Source: Acidobacteriota bacterium (GTDB taxonomy: Bacteria > Acidobacteriota > UBA6911). Taken from it: a stretch of DNA of 64,000 nucleotides. The notes below the pieces were generated by a model. It searched no databases. It was not told where the DNA came from and worked only from the letters and a program-made list of their open reading frames with translations. Of this stretch, positions 370 to 13,153 are shown in pieces. The stretch is taken from the NCBI GenBank assembly GCA_963664705.1, contig OY761556.1, positions 3,072,001 to 3,136,000 on the forward strand, in the 5' to 3' direction. Made by a program: the position numbers and the translations under genes. Positions within the stretch are counted from its first letter, which is position 1; the number at the start of each line of letters is the position of its first letter.

Positions 370-595
370 GTTCGTACCTACCTTTAATGCAAATTATTTG
401 ATTTATGGACCACGGCGCACCCGCAGGATGTGCCTATGCTCAGGTAAAGCCGGAGAAGGTATACAGATGGAAAGCGGTCATATTGAACAGCATAGCTTAT
501 GGACTGAATCGTATAAGAACGACTACTCTGTAATTAATTATCGTTAATGCTTGTTCCACATACGGAGAAAGCCTTGCGTATAAAAATCCACGGTT

Positions 596-2509
596 TCATG
601 CCTTTGGCCCCAAAAAGCGAGTGTTATCAGGCGATCGTTTTGTAATACCAACCCTGTCCAGATAATCCAGAAGCGGCAGCGCATATTTGCGGGTTGCATC
701 GATGAGATACTTAAACTGCACGCTTTCCATCCGCTTCTCTTTTTTAATGTGCTCTGTCACCAGTTCCCTTGCTTTTTCCACGGCTTCCGTGTGGAAGTAC
801 ATATCTCCGGCTACTCGTATAAGGCGCCCATGCTCCGTAAGGAGACGCAGAGCCTCGGCTGCCTCTTTGGTGCCCAGCCCGCAAACTTGCATAACTTCTG
901 CCCTATCGGGCGGGCTGAATATGCGTTGCAGGAATAGAGACTCCACATCCTGCAGACGTTTCTCTTCTGCAATGTCAAATCGAACGCTGTGCGATGCAAG
1001 AAGCACGCGATCTCCTGTTTTACGAATTTTGCCTCGGGATTCGAGTTCACTCAGCAGCCTTCGAATAACAGGTTTGGGCAGCTTGGATGTGGTTTGGCAG
1101 CTCTCGATTTCCAGCCCGGGGCTGGCCGGATCCTCCCGATGATATTTGGATATCTCTTCCAGCAGTTCCTGCGATAGTCTCTCGAAAGTGTCTGCGTGGA
1201 TAGTAAGGCTTTGCTCGAGGATCATTATCTTTGCGGAGTCGGCAAGCGACTGAACTATTCCCTCTGCGCAGCGTACTGTCTTCTTAATTCTTTGGGCGAT
1301 AGCCTTGATGGTTAATGCCTGGTCTGGGACCGTGCGGATAGCATATTCAGCGAACTCCGCATCGTCTCGCACGGCTTTAGCTCGACAATGCACATCTTCG
1401 AGTACGACGGGCCTGTTTCGTTTCAGCTTTCGTTCCAGCGCTTCGATGATCACTCCACCGCCGATAGTCTGAACGGGCGATAAGCTTCGCAAGATGAAGC
1501 GGTCCATCGGACCGGCCACGATAGGTTGGCTAAGTTGCACCTGCACAAGCGCGCGCTCCCCGCCACGAGAAACATCCCCTTCGAGCGTGTATACGGTTGC
1601 GGTATTCTCCGAAGTGCCGGTATGGAATTTCACCGAAGATCCGTTCTTGAGATACAGCCCATCGAGAGCCAGCATATTCAATTCGCACAAAAATAGATTG
1701 GCCGGAGTGAACCATCCTTCCACTGTAATGACATCCCCCCGGGAAATCGTATCCTGGTCCCATTGCGGCACATTAATCGCGGCACATTGTCCGCATTGCA
1801 CCCGATCCGACTGGGTCGCATAAACCTGAATTGCTTTTATCCTTCCGGTCGAAGCCTGAGGATAAATGATCACCTGTTCTCCCAAGCCGGCGGAACCACT
1901 GACAGGTATGCCGGATACGATCGTTCCATACCCTTTTACCGAGAAGGTGCGCTCGACGGGCAAACGGAATATGCCGTCTGTCTGTTTTGGCTTCAGGTTC
2001 TGAACCAAGTTCGCAAGTCCTTCATAAAACGGCTCGAATCCTTCTCCAGTAATGTTTGAAAAGGGAAAGATCGATGCGTTTTGTAGGAATGTCCCATGAA
2101 GGTAAGTGCGGATTTCCTGAGTAACGGTTTCGACACGCTCCGGAAGGACCTTGTCCACCTTGGTCAAAACGACAACGCCGTGCTGCACACCCAGCAGCGA
2201 CAGGATGTCCAGGTGCTCCCGTGTCTGCGGCATCACGCCATCATCGGCTGCAATAACAAAGATCACGGCATCGATCCCTGTAGCCCCAGCCACCATAGTC
2301 TTGACAAAGTTCTCATGCCCGGGAACATCTACAATCCCCACCTCGAGATCGGCGATTTTCCAGGGAGCAAAACCCAGCTCTATCGACATCCCCCTTTCTT
2401 TTTCTTCTTTCAACCGGTCGGTTTCGCACCCAGTCAGGTTCCCGACCAGGGCTGTTTTGCCATGATCGATATGGCCCGCGGTTCCAAGCGTAATGTTCTT
2501 TTGATTCAT
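596..2509 (-). CDS. selB: Selenocysteine-specific elongation factor SelB
   Basis: [21 protein letters not shown] GTPase motifs; C-terminal winged-helix TRKYALPLLDYLD. Confidence 0.97.
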   Translation of the reverse strand: MNQKNITLGTAGHIDHGKTALVGNLTGCETDRLKEEKERGMSIELGFAPWKIADLEVGIVDVPGHENFVKTMVAGATGIDAVIFVIAADDGVMPQTREHLDILSLLGVQHGVVVLTKVDKVLPERVETVTQEIRTYLHGTFLQNASIFPFSNITGEGFEPFYEGLANLVQNLKPKQTDGIFRLPVERTFSVKGYGTIVSGIPVSGSAGLGEQVIIYPQASTGRIKAIQVYATQSDRVQCGQCAAINVPQWDQDTISRGDVITVEGWFTPANLFLCELNMLALDGLYLKNGSSVKFHTGTSENTATVYTLEGDVSRGGERALVQVQLSQPIVAGPMDRFILRSLSPVQTIGGGVIIEALERKLKRNRPVVLEDVHCRAKAVRDDAEFAEYAIRTVPDQALTIKAIAQRIKKTVRCAEGIVQSLADSAKIMILEQSLTIHADTFERLSQELLEEISKYHREDPASPGLEIESCQTTSKLPKPVIRRLLSELESRGKIRKTGDRVLLASHSVRFDIAEEKRLQDVESLFLQRIFSPPDRAEVMQVCGLGTKEAAEALRLLTEHGRLIRVAGDMYFHTEAVEKARELVTEHIKKEKRMESVQFKYLIDATRKYALPLLDYLDRVGITKRSPDNTRFLGPKA

Positions 2510-2533: not shown

Positions 2534-3937
2534 TTATAAAATCTGACGTAAGGCTTCGATCACGATGGAATCTTCTCCCGGCAGGAGCGTCCTTGGATCA
2601 AATAACACTTGCTCGTTTTGAATCCTCGCAATGATGGGTATTCGGTGCTGGCGCAGCCTGAGAACCAGCGTCTGCGCGGATATTACTTTTGGAGTGATCA
2701 CCAGCAGTGTTGTTTGAAGGTTCTGGTCGGGCAGAGATCCACTGCCTGTCTGCGAAAATCCCTGAACTGTTTTGATTTCTGCCTGCGGTTGGGCCTCTCC
2801 AAGTTTGGCCGCCAATGTTTCAGCAGCAACCTGAAGATCTTCCGGTTTCCGAAGAATCATCTCGAGTGTGGGAAGTTTACGTTCAGCATTTTTTGAGTCG
2901 AGGAAAAGCCTGAGAGTCGCTTCCAGAGCTGCAAGAGTCAATTTGCCTACCCGCAGAATACGCGCAAACTGGTTTTTCCGGATCGCCGCTATTAAATCCG
3001 ATCTCCCAAGGATGATCCCTCCCTGCGAAGCGCCGATCAGCTTGTCAGCACTGCTGGTTATGAGGTCCGAGCCTGCCGCGATGGATTGTGGCAACGTCGG
3101 TTCCGGTTCAAAGCCATACCTCGACATATCTACCAGGGATCCCGCACCCACATCATCGATCAGAACGAGTTTATGTTTGTGGGCGATCTGTACCATCTCA
3201 TCGAGAGGCACCTCTGAGGTGAACCCGTGGATTTTGTAATTGCTGGGATGCACTCGAAGAAGCGCAGCCGTGTTTTCCGTAATTGCCCTCTCATAGTCCC
3301 TGGCATGCGTTTTGTTCGTGGTCCCGACTTCCACCATCCGGGCGCCGCTGAAGGCCATTACGTCCGGAAGCCTGAACTCTCCACCAATTTCGACGAGCTG
3401 GCCCCTGGACACAATCACCTCCTTACCCTTCGCGATTGTGTTGAGTACAATGGAGGTTGCGGCCGCGTTGTTGTTGACAACGGTAGCGGCCTGCGCGCCG
3501 GTAAGGCGGCAAAGAAGGGTCTCAACGCCTTCATCCCTGGATGATCTTTGGCCTGAACCTAAACCGATCTGGAGCCTGGAGTATCCGGCAAGTTCCTCCC
3601 TTATCTCCTCAAGAGCTTCCTTTGCGAGTACGGCCCGGCCCAGTGCCGTGTGCAAAATTATGCCTGTGGCGTTGATCACCTTTTGATAAAACGGCCGCTT
3701 CATTGAATTCAGGGCGCCGAGAGTCTGGCTGAGGATCTCCTTGGAAATATCGCTTTTGCTCTTGTCCTTATAAGCGCCCTTTTGGATTTTGGCTCGGACC
3801 TTTTCTTTGACCTCGCGCACGGTCAGGGTAATGATTTCGGGGTTGAACCCGATGCCTGCCGATTGCAGTTCCGCTGATTTGAGTATGACGTCAACAGAAG
3901 GAAGATTTCGCAGGGCTTGATTCTCCTGGTTTTTCAT
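2534..3937 (-). CDS. selA: L-seryl-tRNA(Sec) selenium transferase
   Basis: LRNLPSVD, VINATGIILHTALGRA, SRGQLVEIGGEFRLPDVM, SADKLIG PLP-lysine motif. Confidence 0.97.
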   Translation of the reverse strand: MKNQENQALRNLPSVDVILKSAELQSAGIGFNPEIITLTVREVKEKVRAKIQKGAYKDKSKSDISKEILSQTLGALNSMKRPFYQKVINATGIILHTALGRAVLAKEALEEIREELAGYSRLQIGLGSGQRSSRDEGVETLLCRLTGAQAATVVNNNAAATSIVLNTIAKGKEVIVSRGQLVEIGGEFRLPDVMAFSGARMVEVGTTNKTHARDYERAITENTAALLRVHPSNYKIHGFTSEVPLDEMVQIAHKHKLVLIDDVGAGSLVDMSRYGFEPEPTLPQSIAAGSDLITSSADKLIGASQGGIILGRSDLIAAIRKNQFARILRVGKLTLAALEATLRLFLDSKNAERKLPTLEMILRKPEDLQVAAETLAAKLGEAQPQAEIKTVQGFSQTGSGSLPDQNLQTTLLVITPKVISAQTLVLRLRQHRIPIIARIQNEQVLFDPRTLLPGEDSIVIEALRQIL

Positions 3938-4532: not shown

Positions 4533-6143
4533 ATGACGATCAATATTGAGCGACGAAGACGTGCAATGCAGCGTTCTGTTCGCCTGGGGCACTGTGTGTG
4601 CGACCCCGCAAAGCCCTGCCCCTGCGACCTGTTCAAGGAAAAAGACATTTGCCTCTGTGCCGGCGAGCGGTTGGAGGCTCCGGTCGGACCTGTCGCACTG
4701 ACGCAGTTGGTGGAGAAAGCCGGGTGCGCGTCTAAAATCGATCAAGCGTTTCTTAAGGCTACGCTTAATAATTTGCCCACCTTCGATGATCCGCATGTTT
4801 TGGTGGGAATGCCCGCGGGCGATGACGCCGGCGTGTACGAAATTGGAAATGGGATGGCGTTGGTGCAAACCGTGGATGTATTCACGCCTTCTGTAGACGA
4901 CCCATACCTATTTGGTCAGGTGGCAGCGGCTAATTCCCTCAGCGATGTTTATGCTATGGGTGGACGGCCGATCACCGCATTGTCAATTGTCGGATTTCCC
5001 GTGCGCAAGGTCCCGGACAGCGCCCTTCATGAAATAATGCGCGGCGGCATAGATAAAATGAAAGAAGCTGGGGTCCCGGTCATCGGCGGCCACAGTATCG
5101 ATGACGATCAGATAAAGGCAGGCTTTGCCGTAACCGGACTCATCCAAACCGATCAGGTAGCCACGAATGCTAATGCCCAGGTCGGTGACTTGCTAATTCT
5201 GACAAAGCCGCTGGGGACAGGAATTGTGGCCTTCGCCCGGCAAATCGGACGTGCCGAGGAAGAATCGGTAGCCGCTGCCGTGCAATCAATGACAACGCTC
5301 AATAAGGCAGCGGCAGAGCAAATGGCGGCGCACAATGTTCATTCTTGCACAGATGTCACCGGTTTCGGGCTTATGGGGCACTTGTCGGAAATGGCCTTGA
5401 GGAGCGGAGTTGATATTGAACTGCTCTGGGATAGTCTCCCCTGGTTCCCTGGTGTTTTGCAATATGTTGCCGATGGCATTCTTCCGGGAGCCATCGAGCG
5501 AAACAAAGAGTCGTGCGGAGACCGCGTATTTTCCGGCAGCGGGATCAGTGAACTTATGCTGGATATGTGCTTCGATGCTCAAACTTCGGGAGGGTTGCTC
5601 ATGGTGGTCGACCCGAAAAACTCGGAAACGCTTTTAAGCGCGCTACACCTCGCAGGCATCCCGGATGCATGTGTCATCGGCAACGTCCGGCAAAAAGGCG
5701 AAGGCCGCGTCTTTCTTGAAACCAATGGGAGAAGGAGATTACCTATGTCGAAAGATCAATCCAAACCCACTCCAACGCCGCAGGAATCCGCGTGCTGTAC
5801 GGAACAGGCCCAACAAGCTTCCTGCTGCAGCCCTGAAATCCAGACTGCCGGCTGTTGCTCCGGTGAGGCAGAATCAGCCGCCGAGTCGGGCGCGGAAGCA
5901 CTCTATGGGCAGTTTCTTTCCGCGGTAGGAAAGCCCGGAAGTCTGGATGCATTCACCAAACAGGCGATCAACATTGCGTTGGCGGTGGGGACCCGATGTG
6001 AACCCTGCCTAAAAGCCCACATTCAGAAGGCAAAACAAAACGGTTTCACACCGGCCGAGATAGATGAGGCCGCGTGGATGGGGGTGGGATTCGGAGGGTC
6101 GCCTGCTCTGATGATGTATACACGATTAAAAAATAGCAAATAG
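4533..6143 (+). CDS. selD: Selenide, water dikinase SelD (Cys form) with an N-terminal CxC-CPC-CxC domain and a C-terminal CMD/AhpD-like domain
   Basis: LTQ...GCASK, DDAGVY, QTVDVFTP, AANSLSDVYAMGG, TDVTGFGL, DAQTSGGLL; extensions CVC..CPC..CLC and RCEPC..H. Start could be 4521 or 4533. Confidence 0.95.
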   Translation: MTINIERRRRAMQRSVRLGHCVCDPAKPCPCDLFKEKDICLCAGERLEAPVGPVALTQLVEKAGCASKIDQAFLKATLNNLPTFDDPHVLVGMPAGDDAGVYEIGNGMALVQTVDVFTPSVDDPYLFGQVAAANSLSDVYAMGGRPITALSIVGFPVRKVPDSALHEIMRGGIDKMKEAGVPVIGGHSIDDDQIKAGFAVTGLIQTDQVATNANAQVGDLLILTKPLGTGIVAFARQIGRAEEESVAAAVQSMTTLNKAAAEQMAAHNVHSCTDVTGFGLMGHLSEMALRSGVDIELLWDSLPWFPGVLQYVADGILPGAIERNKESCGDRVFSGSGISELMLDMCFDAQTSGGLLMVVDPKNSETLLSALHLAGIPDACVIGNVRQKGEGRVFLETNGRRRLPMSKDQSKPTPTPQESACCTEQAQQASCCSPEIQTAGCCSGEAESAAESGAEALYGQFLSAVGKPGSLDAFTKQAINIALAVGTRCEPCLKAHIQKAKQNGFTPAEIDEAAWMGVGFGGSPALMMYTRLKNSK

Positions 6144-6214: not shown

Positions 6215-6309
6215 GGAGGTGACGGGGGCCCGGTGGCTCCCGCGGTCTTCAAAACCGTTGAGCCGCCTTTAAAGCGGCAGGTGGGTTCAACTCCCATTCG
6301 CCTCCGCCA
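6215..6309 (+). tRNA. selC: tRNA-Sec (anticodon UCA)
   Basis: 95 nt; 8-bp acceptor stem GGAGGTGA/TCGCCTCC, anticodon loop CT-TCA-AA, long variable arm, G discriminator, encoded CCA. Confidence 0.97.
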
Positions 6310-6341: not shown

Positions 6342-7091
6342 TTATCTTGTTGCCCGCAAATATACTCCCTCGGTGTACCTGGATGTGGTGTATCCGGTTT
6401 TGCCGAGAATCTTAGCCGAACGAAATCCGGCTTCGCCTAGTTTCGCCAGGTAGTCCCCACCCGGCAACGCTCCGGCGATTCAGGTCGACCAGGCATCCAT
6501 GCTCGCCAATGTCTCTTCTGGAATGCTTTCTACCACCACAAGATCGGCGGCCACAAAATTTCCGTCCGGACGTAACACCCGAGCGATCTCCCTAAAGGCT
6601 TTATCCTTATCAGGGACCAGGTTTAGAACACCGTTTGAAATCACGAAATCGAATGACGCATTTTCAAAAGGCAATTCTTCAGCCGATCCCTCTTGGAAAC
6701 GAAGGTTTTGCATAGCGGTTTCCGCCCGGGCTTTGCAGGCCCAATCGAGCATTTCGGCCGTAAAATCAATGCCGAAAACCAGTCCCTCCGGCCCCGCCAG
6801 GAGCGCTGAGACAAAAGAGTCAAGACCACAGCCACAGCCGATATCAAGGACTCGCTCTCCTTTACGCACGGAACGGATGCTGAATGGATTCCCCACTCCG
6901 ACGAATCTATCCACGACATCCTTCGGAATAGTACGGATCAACTCACGAGGGTATCCAAGCCGTTCCAAGCTCTCTTGTCCGACAGGATAGGGGAACAGAC
7001 CTTCCGCCTTATGCGAAACACCTCGGTATTTGCTCTTTATGGCAGACTGCAGTCGTTCTTTCCAATTGTCAGCGAAACAATTATCCGTCAC
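6342..7091 (-). CDS. ArsM-like SAM-dependent methyltransferase, selenoprotein (Sec at UGA 6480-6482)
   Basis: DIGCGCG SAM motif; reading through the UGA gives DAWST-U-IAGALPGGDYLAKLGEAGF...ATR*, matching the ArsM W-x-x-C-x-A-G-A motif; SECIS hairpin follows. Confidence 0.88.
6443..6467 (-). promoter_or_regulatory. SECIS-like hairpin (methyltransferase)
   Basis: UUGCCGGGUG-GGGAC-UACCUGGCGA, 10-bp stem starting 12 nt after the UGA. Confidence 0.75.
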
Positions 7092-7195
7092 TTAACAGGC
7101 GCTCCCGTGTTGGTTTTCACCCTATAATTCCATTACTGCCTCTAATTGTAGAATCGCTCATGCTATGATAATAATGATTTTGTTGGACAGATACG

Positions 7196-7210
7196 ATGCA
7201 GATTTCGCAT
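7196..7210. promoter_or_regulatory. Possible LysR recognition box (ATG-N9-CAT; T-N11-A)
   Basis: ATGcagatttcgCAT dyad at the lysR start, facing the divergent methyltransferase. Confidence 0.35.
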
Positions 7211-8131
7211 AGAATAATTTCCCAACTGAATTTTCAACACTTGCGCACATTCCAGATATTGGCACGCCTTGAGAACTTCTCCAGAACAGGCGATCAAGTC
7301 GGACTATCGCAATCAGCCGTTTCAAGGCACATCAGTGCGTTGGAAGAGGCATTGGGGCTACGGCTATTTGAACGTATCGGACGGCGCGCAATATTGACCT
7401 CGGCCGGAAGAATTTTGCGAGAACGAATTGAGACGCTTATGCGAGAAGCCGATGCTCTGCCGAACATTCTTAAAGATTTGGCAGAAGGGATACAGGGCGA
7501 TCTCAGGATTGGCGCCTGCATTACCGCCGCAAATGCCATTCTTCCGCAAGCTCTCGGGTTGTACAGGCATCAGTACCCACACATCGGGCTTTCACTTCAA
7601 CCGGGCAATAGTTCTGATATTATCGAATGCCTTCGACGGGGTGAGATCGATCTTGCATTTGTTGCCTCGGACAGGTTGCCTTCCGATGTTAAAACTCTGG
7701 CGGAAATTGCGGATGATCTGATTTTATTCGCCTCGCCGGATCACCCAATCTCGATCAAGCGTAACATTGAAGCGAATGATCTCGCTGATTGCGACTTTAT
7801 CCAGCGAGAGGCTCCATCAGACACACACTCGATGGTCACGCGTTGGCTAGAAGCGAAAGGAATTCAGTTGCGAAATCTGATGGATGTGTGGTGACCGGAC
7901 ACTATCAGGCGCCTGGTAGGCGCTGGGTTGGGAATATCTGCACTGTCCCGCCGATTAATTGCGGACGAACTCCTGAAGAGAACTCTTAAGGAGTTGCGAG
8001 TCAAAGGATGGCCGCTGTCCAGGAAAATTCGAATTGCTGTTATGAAGGAGTATTTTTTGTCCAGGGCAACGAAGCAGTTCCTTCAGTTGCTGCGACACAA
8101 GGTCCCGGAGGGACGGTTCTTTGATGCCTAA
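7196..8131 (+). CDS. LysR-family regulator with in-frame UGA (Sec233), 311 aa
   Basis: LysR HTH (LSQSAVSRHISALEEALGLRLFER); the same frame continues after UGA 7892-7894 as PDTIRRLVGAGLGISALS... to TAA, restoring normal LysR length. Confidence 0.85.
7906..7925 (+). promoter_or_regulatory. SECIS-like hairpin (LysR)
   Basis: CA(G)GCGCCU-GGU-AGGCGCUG, starting 11 nt after the UGA, with GU in the apical loop. Confidence 0.75.
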
Positions 8132-8252: not shown

Positions 8253-9350
8253 TTACTTCTTCTTTTCCGCCCCTCTCTTTCCGCCCAGGTTGAACTGAAC
8301 ACCCAATTGCAGGCTGGTTTTTGCAAAATCTGCAGCTCTTTGGGTATTGGTGAAATCCAACCCGACATATTGATGAAGGCGAACAGGAACAGTGAGGTAG
8401 TAGGTCGCGAACCCCGCATCCCAAGCTATTCCCGGGGAAAGCGAAACCATGTACCCTGGCTGACGGTATCCAGATGTGGCGGTTAAAACGTTATAAACCG
8501 GAACACCAGCAACCTGGCTGCCGACAGACAACGAAAAGCGCTTGAAATGTGGAACAGCCGTGGATATGCCGCCGCTAAACTGGTAGGAATCCGGAGCGGT
8601 CAGATAGCGTACATTTTCCGCAACTGCCTGCGGACCGGCCGGGTTTACGGCCGCACCGAACGCGATGGTGTCGTTTTGCTTTTTGAGACTGAATAGGTAA
8701 AGCCCGCTTCCATAGACGCTGAATCGCCCTATCGAGCGGAACCCTTGAGCAGACAGCCTCAAGCCTAAAGCACCACTGCCAGGCTGAACAGCAGGATACA
8801 CGGGACGATTGATAATATTTGCCCCTTTGGAGTCGGGATAGGGGACCTGATAATTGGACTCCCCGGTTGGCAACCGAAGTCCCAAACCAACACTGATGTT
8901 CTGTTTGGTATTTTTTTCAGGATTCAGCAACCACATCCGGCCGCCAATGACGGCATCGCCGAAACCGTGCACGTGCTGATAATAGCGAGTGCCTGCGACT
9001 ACATTGCTCCAATAAGACCAGAGAACATAGGGAACTTCGGCGGTAAGGTTGATCCTGCGGGAGAGGCCATAGGCTCCCTGTAGATTCAGTGTGTCGCCTC
9101 CCTCCCACACCGAATTTGTCGATATGACGTCGTACCCACGAAACGTCTCATCGGTCGCAAATCGACCCCAATAGCTATTCAACTGAAACTGGCCCTTTTG
9201 CAGGTACGGGCCCATCATGCCGCCACGCATGGGCGACATACTCTTGGACAAAATTCAACCACAGCCCTGCGAGAATGCAGACTGAGGTATGAGTAGAGCG
9301 AGGCCGATTACCATCGGTAACAGCCAGCTCAAGTAATCACACTTCCTCAT
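8253..9350 (-). CDS. Exported outer-membrane beta-barrel transporter-family selenoprotein, paralog 1 (signal peptide + QGCG-U)
   Basis: AAAGGA RBS, ATG 9350, signal peptide ending SAFS, then QGCG-UGA(9255-57)-ILSKSMSP in frame with the 332-aa ORF; GFGD..LRLPTG..QPGSG motifs resemble the Phenol_MetA_deg-type barrel family. Confidence 0.85.
9217..9239 (-). promoter_or_regulatory. SECIS-like hairpin (barrel paralog 1)
   Basis: AUGUCGCC-CAUGCGU-GGCGGCAU starting 15 nt after the UGA. Confidence 0.7.
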
Positions 9351-9494
9351 CGAAACATTCCTTTCTAGCATAGTTTTCTCTATTGCACACAAGCAACGTG
9401 CCACATTGTGGTCGAATGAGTCCTTCGCATGCAAATATATTTGAATATTATAATAATGAGAAATACGGATAAGATCTCAGGTAAGGCGGACTGG

Positions 9495-11683: not shown

Positions 11684-12787
11684 CTATTTTGCTGGTTTCT
11701 TTCCGCCGAGGCTGAAAGTCACGCCGAATTGCAGACTCATTTTATTCAGATTCCCGCTTTGCTGGGTGCCGGTAAAGTCCTTCAATATACCACCCCACAC
11801 ACGGACGGGAACTGTTAGAAAATAGGATCCAAGCTTTGTTCTCAGCGACAGGCCTGGGTTCAATGTTACAAGATATCCTGGCTGCCGATATCCCTCGGAA
11901 CCAGTCAGGACATTAAACGTCGGCACTCCCGCAATCTGGCTGCCCAAAGAGACGGAGAGCCCCTTCAAATGCGGGACAGGCGCGGACATGCCGGCATTAT
12001 ATAGATAGGAATCGGGCGTGGCGTTATAGCGCTTATTCGCCGCTACGGCGTCAGGCCCACCCGGGTTAAATGTGGACATGATTGACTGGGTATTGTTCTG
12101 CTCCTTGAAACTGAACAGATATAGAGCATTTGCATACACAGCGAAATGGCTGAACCTTCGGTATCCCTGCATTGCCACTCGGAGCCCGGCCGCACCGCTG
12201 CCAGGTTGTACGTCCGATTTTGCAGCATGGAGCTTGATATCCTGTCCCAGAATATTGGGGAACATAACCTGATAGTCCGAGTTTCCAGTAGGTAATCTGA
12301 AGGCCAACTGGAAGGCCATGTTCTGTTTTGTATTCTTTTCAGGATTGAAGAGCCATACGCGCCCGCCAATTATGGCATCACCCAGGCCTTTGGTTTTCAT
12401 TTCACGCCGTGAGCCTGCAATGGGATAGTTCCAGTAGGAATCGAGTAAGACCGGAACATCTGCGGTGATGTTGATTCTGCGGGTAAGGGCATACGCGCCC
12501 TGGAAGTTTAAGGATGTGCCACCCTGTTTTGGAGCCGCGTCCGCATTAATGAGGTCGCTCCGCAACTGGGTTCCGGTGAAGTATTGGTCGCTGTTAAACC
12601 GATTCAAACTGCCTTGAATCTGCCATTCTCCCTTTTCCAGATAGGGTCCAAGTAGGCCGCCGCTCATGGGGGCCACATTTCTTGCTAAAATTCAACCACA
12701 ACCTTGTGAAAACGCGCTCTGTGGCGCAAGCAGAGCCAGGCAAAGTGCCCACGGCACCAGCCAGCCCAGCAATTTCATCTTTGTCAT
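11684..12787 (-). CDS. Exported outer-membrane beta-barrel transporter-family selenoprotein, paralog 2 (signal peptide + QGCG-U)
   Basis: AAAGGA RBS, ATG 12787, MTKMKLLGWLVPWALCLALLAPQSAFSQGCG-UGA(12692-94)-ILARNVAP; UGA is codon 32, as in paralog 1. Confidence 0.85.
12652..12676 (-). promoter_or_regulatory. SECIS-like hairpin (barrel paralog 2)
   Basis: GUGGCC-CC-CAUGAGC-GG(C)GGCC(U)AC starting 15 nt after the UGA; weaker stem. Confidence 0.5.
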
Positions 12788-13153
12788 TTCTATTCCTTTC
12801 CATACACAGTTGTTTCAGCATTCAGAAAACCAGTTCATTTGACCAAAGCTTCCTCGCATTATGCAACAAGAAAGTTCTGCCAAATTGAGTAAGGCCAATT
12901 TCGCATACCTCCATAGGTCCGCGGCACTTTTATTGTCCGAAGGCAAATCCTAACTCAGATCTATTTTGCTCCGAAAAGCCTTGCTTCTATTCCCCTATCG
13001 GTGACACACTTATTCTGACATGAATAAAGTATTTACATCCCGCTTCTCCGGCTTCACTTGATAATCCTTTCCATACACGTCGGTACGCCGTCATCCTGAT
13101 TTCTCATTTTCGATAATCCAAATTGTGAGCTCATTGCAGCTGCGGAGCTTTGC

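What the first reader, a model, noticed from the sequence alone, without database searches (positions are those of the whole stretch)
7196..8131. Selenocysteine-containing LysR regulator, a possible selenium-gated transcription switch
Seen: UGA at codon 233 lies just before the conserved xxxIxxxVxAGLGIS segment of the effector domain. It is followed by a compact hairpin with GGU in the loop, similar in spacing to the E. coli fdhF SECIS. The gene is divergent from the Sec methyltransferase, with an ATG-N9-CAT dyad at its own start. Inference: full-length regulator is made only when Sec-tRNA is charged, or the Sec senses a metalloid, either of which would couple expression to selenium supply.
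Basis: partly seen in the sequence, partly recalled or inferred. Interest (0 to 1): 0.85.

Follow-up and report, generated by a model that had tools for sequence, protein, structure and literature searches.

The report
Selenocysteine-containing LysR transcription regulator clade
The apparent stop codon in this bacterial gene-regulator gene is shared by about 160 relatives and very likely encodes selenocysteine, which would make it a selenium-containing DNA-binding sensor, predicted to switch on the methyltransferase gene next to it and of a kind missing from the published selenoprotein lists I checked.

Summary
Observation confirmed; this is not a recent nonsense mutation. 161 of 170 related LysR clusters (30-82% identity) end exactly before codon 233. 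All 4 orthologous DNA loci I could obtain have TGA there, an open and conserved downstream frame, and the same GGU-loop hairpin, which meets all four published bacterial SECIS criteria. The three hosts testable as genomes encode selA. Cys occupies this column in about 8% of the nearest full-length LysRs. Sec recoding: about 0.92. The residue is predicted to cap a helix beside the effector cleft; it matches OxyR Ser223, not the peroxide-sensing Cys199. The promoter block (dyad at the start codon, divergent -10) is conserved, but the divergent gene is not: a Sec methyltransferase here, DUF1264 in Acidoferrum-type loci. Best mechanism: a selenol-based sensor activating the divergent gene (0.5), which would also depend on selenium supply; pure selenium gate 0.3. 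Limits: the stop codon was seen in DNA in only two lineages, there is no covariation, no expression data, and the ligand is unknown. No LysR appears in the 2025-26 selenoprotein catalogues I searched. The scan earlier noted Sec-LysRs at the OxyR column, and a Sec-ArsR, on other DNA.

The parts
7196..8131 (+). LysR-type regulator, 311 aa with predicted Sec233 (HTH 13-72, effector domain 97-302)
   Evidence: Pfam PF00126 and PF03466 above cut-off across the TGA; AlphaFold2 model pLDDT 95; 161 of 170 relatives end at this column
7892..7894 (+). In-frame TGA, predicted selenocysteine 233; predicted N-cap of helix 234-242 after strand 226-231
   Evidence: TGA also in L096, L097, L191, L192
7908..7924 (+). 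SECIS-like hairpin, 7-bp stem, loop GGU (or U-GGU-A), loop 20 nt after the UGA, -10.3 kcal/mol
   Evidence: 15-nt core identical in 4 of 5 loci and with one A>G change in L191; criteria from PMC13188914 Fig 2 legend
7196..7212 (.). Predicted high-affinity LysR recognition site (T-N11-A dyad, ATGCAG-N3-NNGCATAG) overlapping the start codon, about -65 from the inferred divergent start
   Evidence: conserved in L096, L097, L191, L058; M-x-x-x-H start in 88 of 112 family proteins, followed by Ser or Arg (both can be AGN) in 76 of 88
7161..7182 (.). Conserved block TGcTATGAT-NN-AATGATTTT: predicted extended -10 of the lysR promoter (+) and imperfect activation site over the -35 of the divergent promoter (-)
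   Evidence: 62-nt upstream block 33-38 of 62 identical to 4 orthologous loci, against 11-13 of 62 for the next 62 nt; not called by the consensus scan
7145..7150 (-). Predicted -10 hexamer (TACAAT; TAGAAT in orthologues) of the divergent promoter
   Evidence: alignment; function inferred
6342..7091 (-). Divergent class I SAM methyltransferase, ArsM-like UxxG selenoprotein (TGA 6482-6480 with hairpin); predicted target
   Evidence: PRK11873 192 bits, cut-off 263 not met; matches the N-terminal domain of the NF041537/NF041536/NF047649 selenoprotein models, below their cut-offs
6215..6309 (+). tRNA-Sec (UCA)
4566..6143 (+). selD fused to a C-terminal CMD/AhpD-like domain (start approximate)
2534..3937 (-). 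selA (one of two copies in the genome)
587..2509 (-). selB (one of two copies; end approximate)

Best explanation
The gene carries an in-frame UGA and a downstream hairpin that likely direct selenocysteine into position 233 of a full-length LysR-type regulator, whose selenol is predicted to be the reactive sensing residue at the rim of the effector cleft, and which would activate the divergent methyltransferase gene from the dyad at its own start codon. Shown: the TGA, the hairpin, the family-wide stop column, the conserved downstream frame, the conserved promoter block, and Sec machinery in the hosts tested. Inferred: SelB binds the GGU loop and Sec is inserted; a tetramer anchors at 7196-7212, represses its own gene and covers the divergent -35 region; Sec233, at a helix N-terminus next to a cleft remodelled by a clade-specific Asp209, reacts with or coordinates a soft thiol-reactive species. 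My guess for this locus is an As(III)-type metalloid or another substrate of the methyltransferase. The resulting change in the effector domain would turn on the divergent promoter. Because decoding needs Sec-tRNA, the circuit would also be off without selenium, as a by-product.
For: Stop column conserved in 105 of 111 core and 56 of 59 sister clusters, in one clade with SH-aLRT 96 in a quick tree. TGA in 4 of 4 orthologous loci; identity to the window protein after the TGA is 51-55% against 59-60% before, and post-TGA dN/dS is 0.19-0.57 in all 10 pairs. All four bSECIS criteria met, with spacing like fdhF/fdhA. selA in G000, G429, G1183; selB in G000, G429; TGA-containing fdhA in all three. 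Cys at this column in about 8% of 166 nearest full-length LysRs, often as C-P-E-T, matching U-P-D/E-T/I. The cleft keeps R204, S208 and T/S210 (YeiE sulfite ligands R191, S195, T197) but has Asp209 in 91-93% of the clade against G/A/S outside, which suggests a selected, distinct ligand. The read-through model is a complete LysR fold. The review states Sec-to-Cys reversion is rare in bacteria, so the lack of Cys forms inside the clade does not require gating.
Against: No ligand or reactivity was tested. No second Cys is conserved clade-wide (C108 25% of core, C199 84% of core but not in sisters). The column is not one of the 8 YeiE sulfite-pocket residues and is not the OxyR Cys199 position; it is usually Ser or Asn, a structural N-cap. 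The divergent gene differs between lineages (DUF1264 in 4 loci), so a metalloid ligand rests on one locus. The methyltransferase misses the ArsM cut-off. The codon was seen in DNA in only 5 loci from two lineages. The stem shows no covariation, and synonymous identity in the hairpin is 4-5 of 6 against about 40% elsewhere, which is modest.
Confidence: 0.5

Rival explanations
1. Selenium gate: Sec233 is chemically incidental and serves as a translational checkpoint. The full-length regulator, and so activation or repression of the target, exists only when Sec-tRNA is charged.
For: No Cys- or Ser-bearing full-length member was found inside the clade, as expected if any sense codon destroys the function. 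The site tolerates S/N/C/T/G in other LysRs. Here the gene sits beside selB-selA-selD-tRNA-Sec and faces a selenoprotein gene. The best NCBIfam profile is LysR_Sec_metab.
Against: That profile's cut-off is missed (177 against 250) and ordinary outgroup LysRs score higher (216, 226). Four other loci face DUF1264, and I saw no sel gene among the ORFs listed near them (only some were profile-searched). The effector cleft is conserved and remodelled, so a ligand is still sensed. Sec-to-Cys reversion is rare in bacteria anyway.
Confidence: 0.3
2. Sec is inserted but acts only as a structural N-cap, or tunes allostery for an ordinary small-molecule ligand, with neither redox/metal sensing nor selected gating.
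For: Ser or Asn are the usual residues. BenM mutations R225H and E226V alter OFF-state and operating range; their correspondence to this loop is recalled, not aligned here.
Against: Keeping a costly UGA and SECIS across clades only 30-55% identical is hard to explain for a role that Ser can fill.
Confidence: 0.11
3. The TGA is a real stop (short protein or split gene), or is read as Trp or another residue without Sec.
For: Databases call a 222-232 aa protein, and 71-aa downstream ORFs are called in one cluster. P0169 has W at the column. The stop identity is unseen in about 160 clusters.
Against: The cut falls inside the second effector subdomain. No in-frame start is shared between the window and the other loci after the TGA. 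1885 long ORFs of this genome end in TGA, which argues against code 4. All 5 DNA loci use TGA, never TAA/TAG, with a SECIS-type hairpin.
Confidence: 0.08
4. Recent nonsense mutation or sequencing error (pseudogene).
For: No orthologue in 50 same-family genomes to compare with.
Against: Family-wide conserved stop column, TGA in distant orthologues, identical independent assemblies.
Confidence: 0.01

Closest known systems
YeiE/FinR-type sulfite sensors and NdhR/CcmR (PDB 7ERP, 8SBH, 8SBF, 5Y2V)
   Same: Closest solved relatives by sequence and fold (27-31% identity). Keeps N138, S139, R204, S208, T210 matching YeiE N126, S127, R191, S195, T197. Divergent-promoter layout.
   Different: They have Asn, His or Ser at the Sec column. 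YeiE S96, S97 and E145 are replaced and Asp209 is added. No recoding. The label FinR for 8SBF is recalled; the entry reads ACIAD0746.
LysR_Se / HrsM (NCBIfam NF040786; Lin et al. 2015, PMC5322559)
   Same: LysR regulator linked to selenium genes; best-scoring profile; lies next to sel genes in this genome.
   Different: Cut-off not met (177 and 172 against 250). The passages read describe it as sensing probably selenophosphate and do not describe it as a selenoprotein. Here the regulator itself is predicted to contain Sec, and most loci seen are not beside sel genes.
OxyR (thiol-switch LysR)
   Same: LysR whose sensing rests on a reactive chalcogen residue in the second effector subdomain.
   Different: OxyR Cys199 aligns with Asp209 here; Sec233 aligns with OxyR Ser223 and CysB Asp226. 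No resolving Cys. OxyR profile 80 bits against a cut-off of 329.
Bacterial selenoproteins decoded by SelB and an in-frame SECIS (E. coli fdhF type)
   Same: In-frame UGA, GGU-loop hairpin at matching distance, selA/selB/selD/tRNA-Sec, Cys homologues at the column.
   Different: No LysR or other HTH regulator among the 119 families of the 2026 review table; the only 'regulator' entry is the small FmdB-family zinc-ribbon protein.

Membership tests
LysR-type transcriptional regulator | N-terminal HTH_1 plus LysR substrate-binding domain | tested here: met
   70 and 157 bits, above cut-offs; fold matches
LysR-type transcriptional regulator | T-N11-A dyad about -50 to -80 from a divergent promoter | tested here: met
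   dyad 7196-7210, centre about 65 nt from the start inferred from -10 TACAAT; conserved in 4 orthologous loci; layout from PMC11495319 section 6. Binding itself untested.
Bacterial selenoprotein | In-frame UGA conserved in orthologues with an open, conserved downstream frame | tested here: met
   4 of 4 orthologous loci; 161 of 170 proteins end at the column (codon not seen for these)
Bacterial selenoprotein | bSECIS: 3-9 nt loop with G first or second, 4-16 bp stem, 16-37 nt spacing, MFE at or below -7.5 | tested here: met
   loop GGU, 7 bp, 20 nt, -10.3; criteria
Bacterial selenoprotein | Compensatory base changes in the SECIS stem | tested here: inconclusive
   6 of 6 pairs invariant in 4 sequences; L191 has one one-sided change
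Bacterial selenoprotein | Host encodes Sec machinery | tested here: met
   selA 3 of 3 genomes; selB 2 of 2 tested; tRNA-Sec above cut-off in 2 of 3, G1183 best 44.6 against 47
Bacterial selenoprotein | Cys-containing homologues at the Sec column | tested here: met
   9 of 147, 5 of 34, about 8% of 166 pooled; none is inside the clade and they are not one sister group in the tree
Bacterial selenoprotein | Se detected in the protein | not testable with these tools
   needs 75Se labelling or mass spectrometry
LysR_Se/HrsM (NF040786) | Score above the curated cut-off of 250 | tested here: not met
   177 and 172 for L097
OxyR | Peroxidatic Cys199 and resolving Cys208 | tested here: not met
   Asp209 aligns with Cys199; profile 80 against 329
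YeiE sulfite sensor | Profile cut-off 480 and the 8 sulfite-pocket residues | tested here: not met
   172 bits; 5 of 8 pocket residues kept

The most novel reading that the evidence does not exclude
A multi-phylum clade of transcription factors whose own UGA/SECIS is the sensor: the cell reads its selenocysteine-charging capacity by whether it can finish translating the regulator, and the finished protein then uses the same selenol to sense a ligand, forming a selenium AND ligand gate on transcription that travels as a portable promoter-regulator cassette.
Probability: 0.3. Interest if true: 0.9.

Novelty: new variant of a known kind. Interest (0 to 1): 0.76.

Why it matters
Known prokaryotic selenoproteins are almost all enzymes, carriers or transporters. 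A DNA-binding regulator built with Sec would add a functional class and give a direct way to test how bacteria couple transcription to selenium, a question so far resting on HrsM/LysR_Se, whose effector is only proposed. The clade is large (about 170 clusters at 90% identity; named members from Acidobacteriota and Planctomycetaceae) and is annotated throughout as a truncated 222-232 aa LysR. Cys/Sec-pair searches could miss it because no close Cys orthologue was found. Sec sits at a site different from OxyR's, so LysR proteins may have recruited selenium more than once. A 1-kb promoter-plus-regulator cassette is easy to test in a laboratory strain.

Tried and rejected
Collection scans for loci were swamped by ordinary LysRs: 1 partial orthologue among 80 genome loci and 2 full ones among 80 metagenome loci. 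Genome searches found orthologues in 0 of 40 relatives, 0 of 50 same-family genomes, 0 of 400 same-phylum genomes, 0 of 300 others in G429's order, 0 of 401 in G430's order, 2 of 251 in G429's genus, G429 included, and 0 of 401 Planctomycetota. Only 7-9 candidates per genome were scored in the large searches, so these are not absences. Tallies include the unpublished G034 as a non-orthologue; no other claim rests on it. No viral match for the TGA-hairpin pattern; no plasmid orthologue. A search for separately called C-terminal pieces found none. No RNA holder listed, so expression is untested; run X5 covered only short pieces past the TGA and X6 nothing. The consensus promoter scan found no site in the intergenic region. 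Hairpin stability against shuffles was not significant; covariation was uninformative. No dimer model was obtained, so the distance between the two Sec residues is open. The NdhR and CmpR structure papers were not held; I therefore do not claim that this column binds a ligand at the dimer interface (recalled only; the review places both NdhR ligands in the cleft). Rejected: OxyR-type switch, AphB C227 analogy (about 15 A from the cavity and disputed, 103), LysR_Se membership, a genome-wide regulon (the two-box pattern occurs once, at this locus; one other single-box match at C1:5804007 was not followed; 90, 93).

Full report
Observation. The ORF 7196-8131 (+) translates as a LysR-type regulator with one in-frame TGA at codon 233 (7892-7894) and 78 further open codons. 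Read through, it matches HTH_1 and the whole LysR substrate domain, 97-302. Two assemblies of the likely source sample span the stretch without differences. A hairpin GGCGCCT-GGT-AGGCGCT follows at 7908-7924. It meets all four bacterial SECIS constraints quoted in PMC13188914 (passages): loop GGU, 7-bp stem, 20-nt spacing, -10.3 kcal/mol. Its GGU lies at 24-26 from the U of UGA, against 22-24 in E. coli fdhF and this genome's fdhA. Against this: its folding energy is not better than shuffles, and 3-6% of ordinary stop codons pass a similar shape test that I set after seeing the hairpin. The divergent methyltransferase with its own TGA and hairpin, and the ATG-N9-CAT dyad, are as described.

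The stop is a family trait. A protein search returned 111 other clusters at about 52-82% identity; 105 end exactly at residue 232. Of the other 6, four end earlier and two look frameshifted; one of these (P0110) returns to the conserved C-terminal frame. A whole-library search and a follow-up found two sister groups, 59 clusters at 30-55% identity, of which 56 end at the same column. A quick tree of 103 selected rows groups 29 core and 2 sister rows with SH-aLRT 96 (the careful search did not finish). Named members are Acidobacteriota, Terriglobales and Planctomycetaceae records. No full-length member was listed among the best hits; one cluster member, P0169, is full length with W at the column, probably a code-4 gene call, which I could not verify.

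DNA evidence. Four orthologous loci cover the codon: L096, L097, L191 and L192. All have TGA, an open frame for 85-93 more codons, and 51-55% identity to the window protein after the TGA against 59-60% before; dN/dS after the TGA is 0.19-0.57 in all 10 pairs. The 15-nt hairpin core is identical in four of five sequences, with one A-to-G change in L191. Identical synonymous codons are 4-5 of 6 in the hairpin against about 40% elsewhere. The stem shows no covariation. The four loci are close kin, so this is two lineages, and for the other clusters the codon is inferred. selA is present in G000, G429 and G1183, selB in the two tested, and a TGA-containing fdhA in all three; tRNA-Sec passes the cut-off in two of three. 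G000 is selenoprotein-rich and ends 1885 long ORFs with TGA, which argues against a TGA=Trp code. I put Sec recoding at about 0.92.

Where the residue sits. The model (pLDDT 95) places 233 between strand 226-231 and helix 234-242, the helix-capping position. In the nearest full-length LysRs the column is Ser 53%, Asn 17%, Cys 8% (166 proteins), with several C-P-E-T motifs; these Cys forms are scattered in the tree. Alignment maps it to OxyR Ser223 and CysB Asp226, while OxyR Cys199 maps to Asp209. It is therefore not a Sec-OxyR. The closest solved relatives are NdhR/CcmR, ACIAD0746 and YeiE. Five of the eight YeiE sulfite-pocket residues are kept (PMC8931317 passages; alignment), and Asp209 is present in 91-93% of the clade against G/A/S outside it. 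No second Cys is conserved clade-wide. Distances to Asp209 or to the partner subunit were not obtained.

Promoter. The 62 nt upstream of the ATG are 33-38 of 62 identical to four orthologous loci, against 11-13 of 62 in the next 62 nt. Conserved are a -10-like hexamer on the minus strand (7150-7145), a block at 7161-7182 and the dyad at 7196-7212. The dyad centre lies about 65 nt from the inferred divergent start, within the -80 to -50 range of LysR recognition sites (PMC11495319 section 6), and the imperfect second box overlaps a poor -35, as for an activator-dependent promoter. The protein starts M-x-x-x-H in 88 of 112 family proteins, followed by Ser or Arg in 76 of 88, consistent with selection on the DNA box. 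The two-box pattern occurs once in the genome, suggesting a local regulator. The consensus scan did not call these promoters; all this is inferred. The divergent gene is an ArsM-like Sec methyltransferase here (below the ArsM cut-off) but DUF1264 in L058, L096, L097 and, by near-identical sequence, L193. The gene was not found in 50 same-family genomes and lies beside one of two selA/selB sets, which fits a horizontally moved cassette.

Mechanism. I commit to a selenol-based sensor (0.5): SelB-dependent decoding gives a full-length regulator that anchors at its own start codon, represses itself and activates the divergent gene when Sec233 reacts with or binds a soft electrophile or metalloid. 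The support is the Cys/Sec pairing, the helix-cap site and the remodelled but conserved cleft; the ligand is a guess from one neighbour. The rival is a pure selenium gate (0.3), favoured by the absence of sense-codon members and by this locus, and disfavoured by the DUF1264 loci and by the review's statement that Sec-to-Cys reversion is rare in bacteria. A structural role gets 0.11, a true stop or non-Sec read-through 0.08, a pseudogene 0.01. The two leading readings are separable by U233S/U233C reporters.

Comparison with what is known. It is a LysR-type regulator and passes every selenoprotein test I could run except covariation (inconclusive). It fails the cut-offs for LysR_Se/HrsM, YeiE and OxyR. 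LysR_Se is described as selenium-associated, not Sec-containing, in the passages read (PMC5322559; PMC9312934). Table 1 of PMC13188914 (section 7, parts 1-2 of 3; word search) lists 119 families and no LysR. Word searches of BSepDB (PMC13326102 main text and one supplement of about 4 million characters, possibly cut) and deep-Sep (PMC12013277 main text and 4 supplements) found no 'LysR'. Library searches (listings only) showed no paper on a Sec-containing LysR. Subscription papers and the BSepDB website were not searchable, so 'not in print' is limited to these. Other papers seen: PMC5424276 (passages), 10.1101/601823 (passages), PMC11495319 (passages and sections 6, 16). Earlier notes of this scan report Sec-LysRs at the OxyR Cys199 column and a Sec-ArsR in other genomes; they are unchecked, and no note matched this family by sequence or place.

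Verdict. The feature is real: a large, systematically truncated LysR clade that very likely carries selenocysteine at a site not used by OxyR. New variant of a known kind; interest 0.76.

Noticed in passing
window 8253-9434 (-) and 11684-12946 (-): Two paralogous secreted proteins with an in-frame TGA in SQGCG-U-IL right after a signal-peptide-like stretch; no Pfam or NCBIfam hit. Atlas look-alikes (search on the N-terminal part only) are hypothetical proteins with a minority Phenol_MetA_deg label. Their hairpins fail my SECIS test. Possible uncatalogued CxU selenoproteins.
   Followed up: partly
G000 genome, about 16 places (e.g. C1:2633983 +, 3526227 -, 6870141 -): Expanded family of 560-640 aa proteins with in-frame TGA in GH-U-SxC or GG-U-xGC motifs and SECIS-like hairpins; earlier scan notes call them UGSC-family selenoproteins, which I did not test.
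   Followed up: partly
G000 C1:3074543 and 3461774 (selA); 3072623 and 3657373 (selB); 3078215 and 6559014 (tRNA-Sec): The genome carries two sets of Sec machinery; the window's set is clustered, with divergent selBA and selD.
   Followed up: partly
window about 4566-6143 (+): SelD has Cys, not Sec, in its active-site motif, a Cys-rich N-terminal extension, and a C-terminal Cys-pair linker plus CMD/AhpD domain with CxxC: an unusual fusion.
   Followed up: no
window 6342-7091 (-): Stand-alone form of the methyltransferase domain known from the double-selenoprotein fusions NF041536, NF041537 and NF047649; it has VGVGNP and SNGVLNL where ArsM has Cys (ArsM motif recalled), so its substrate may not be arsenite.
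   Followed up: partly
L096:224-790, L097:84-665, L058:9284-9850, L193:9328-9894 (all -): A secreted DUF1264 protein is the divergent neighbour in the Acidoferrum-type loci, behind the same promoter block; a lead to the function of DUF1264.
   Followed up: partly
upstream of the window, G000 C1 about 3063000-3072400 (-): Genes that look by eye like a corrinoid protein, uroporphyrinogen-decarboxylase-like methyltransferases, a hydantoinase-like protein and a cysteine desulfurase run on from selB on the same strand; not profile-searched.
   Followed up: no
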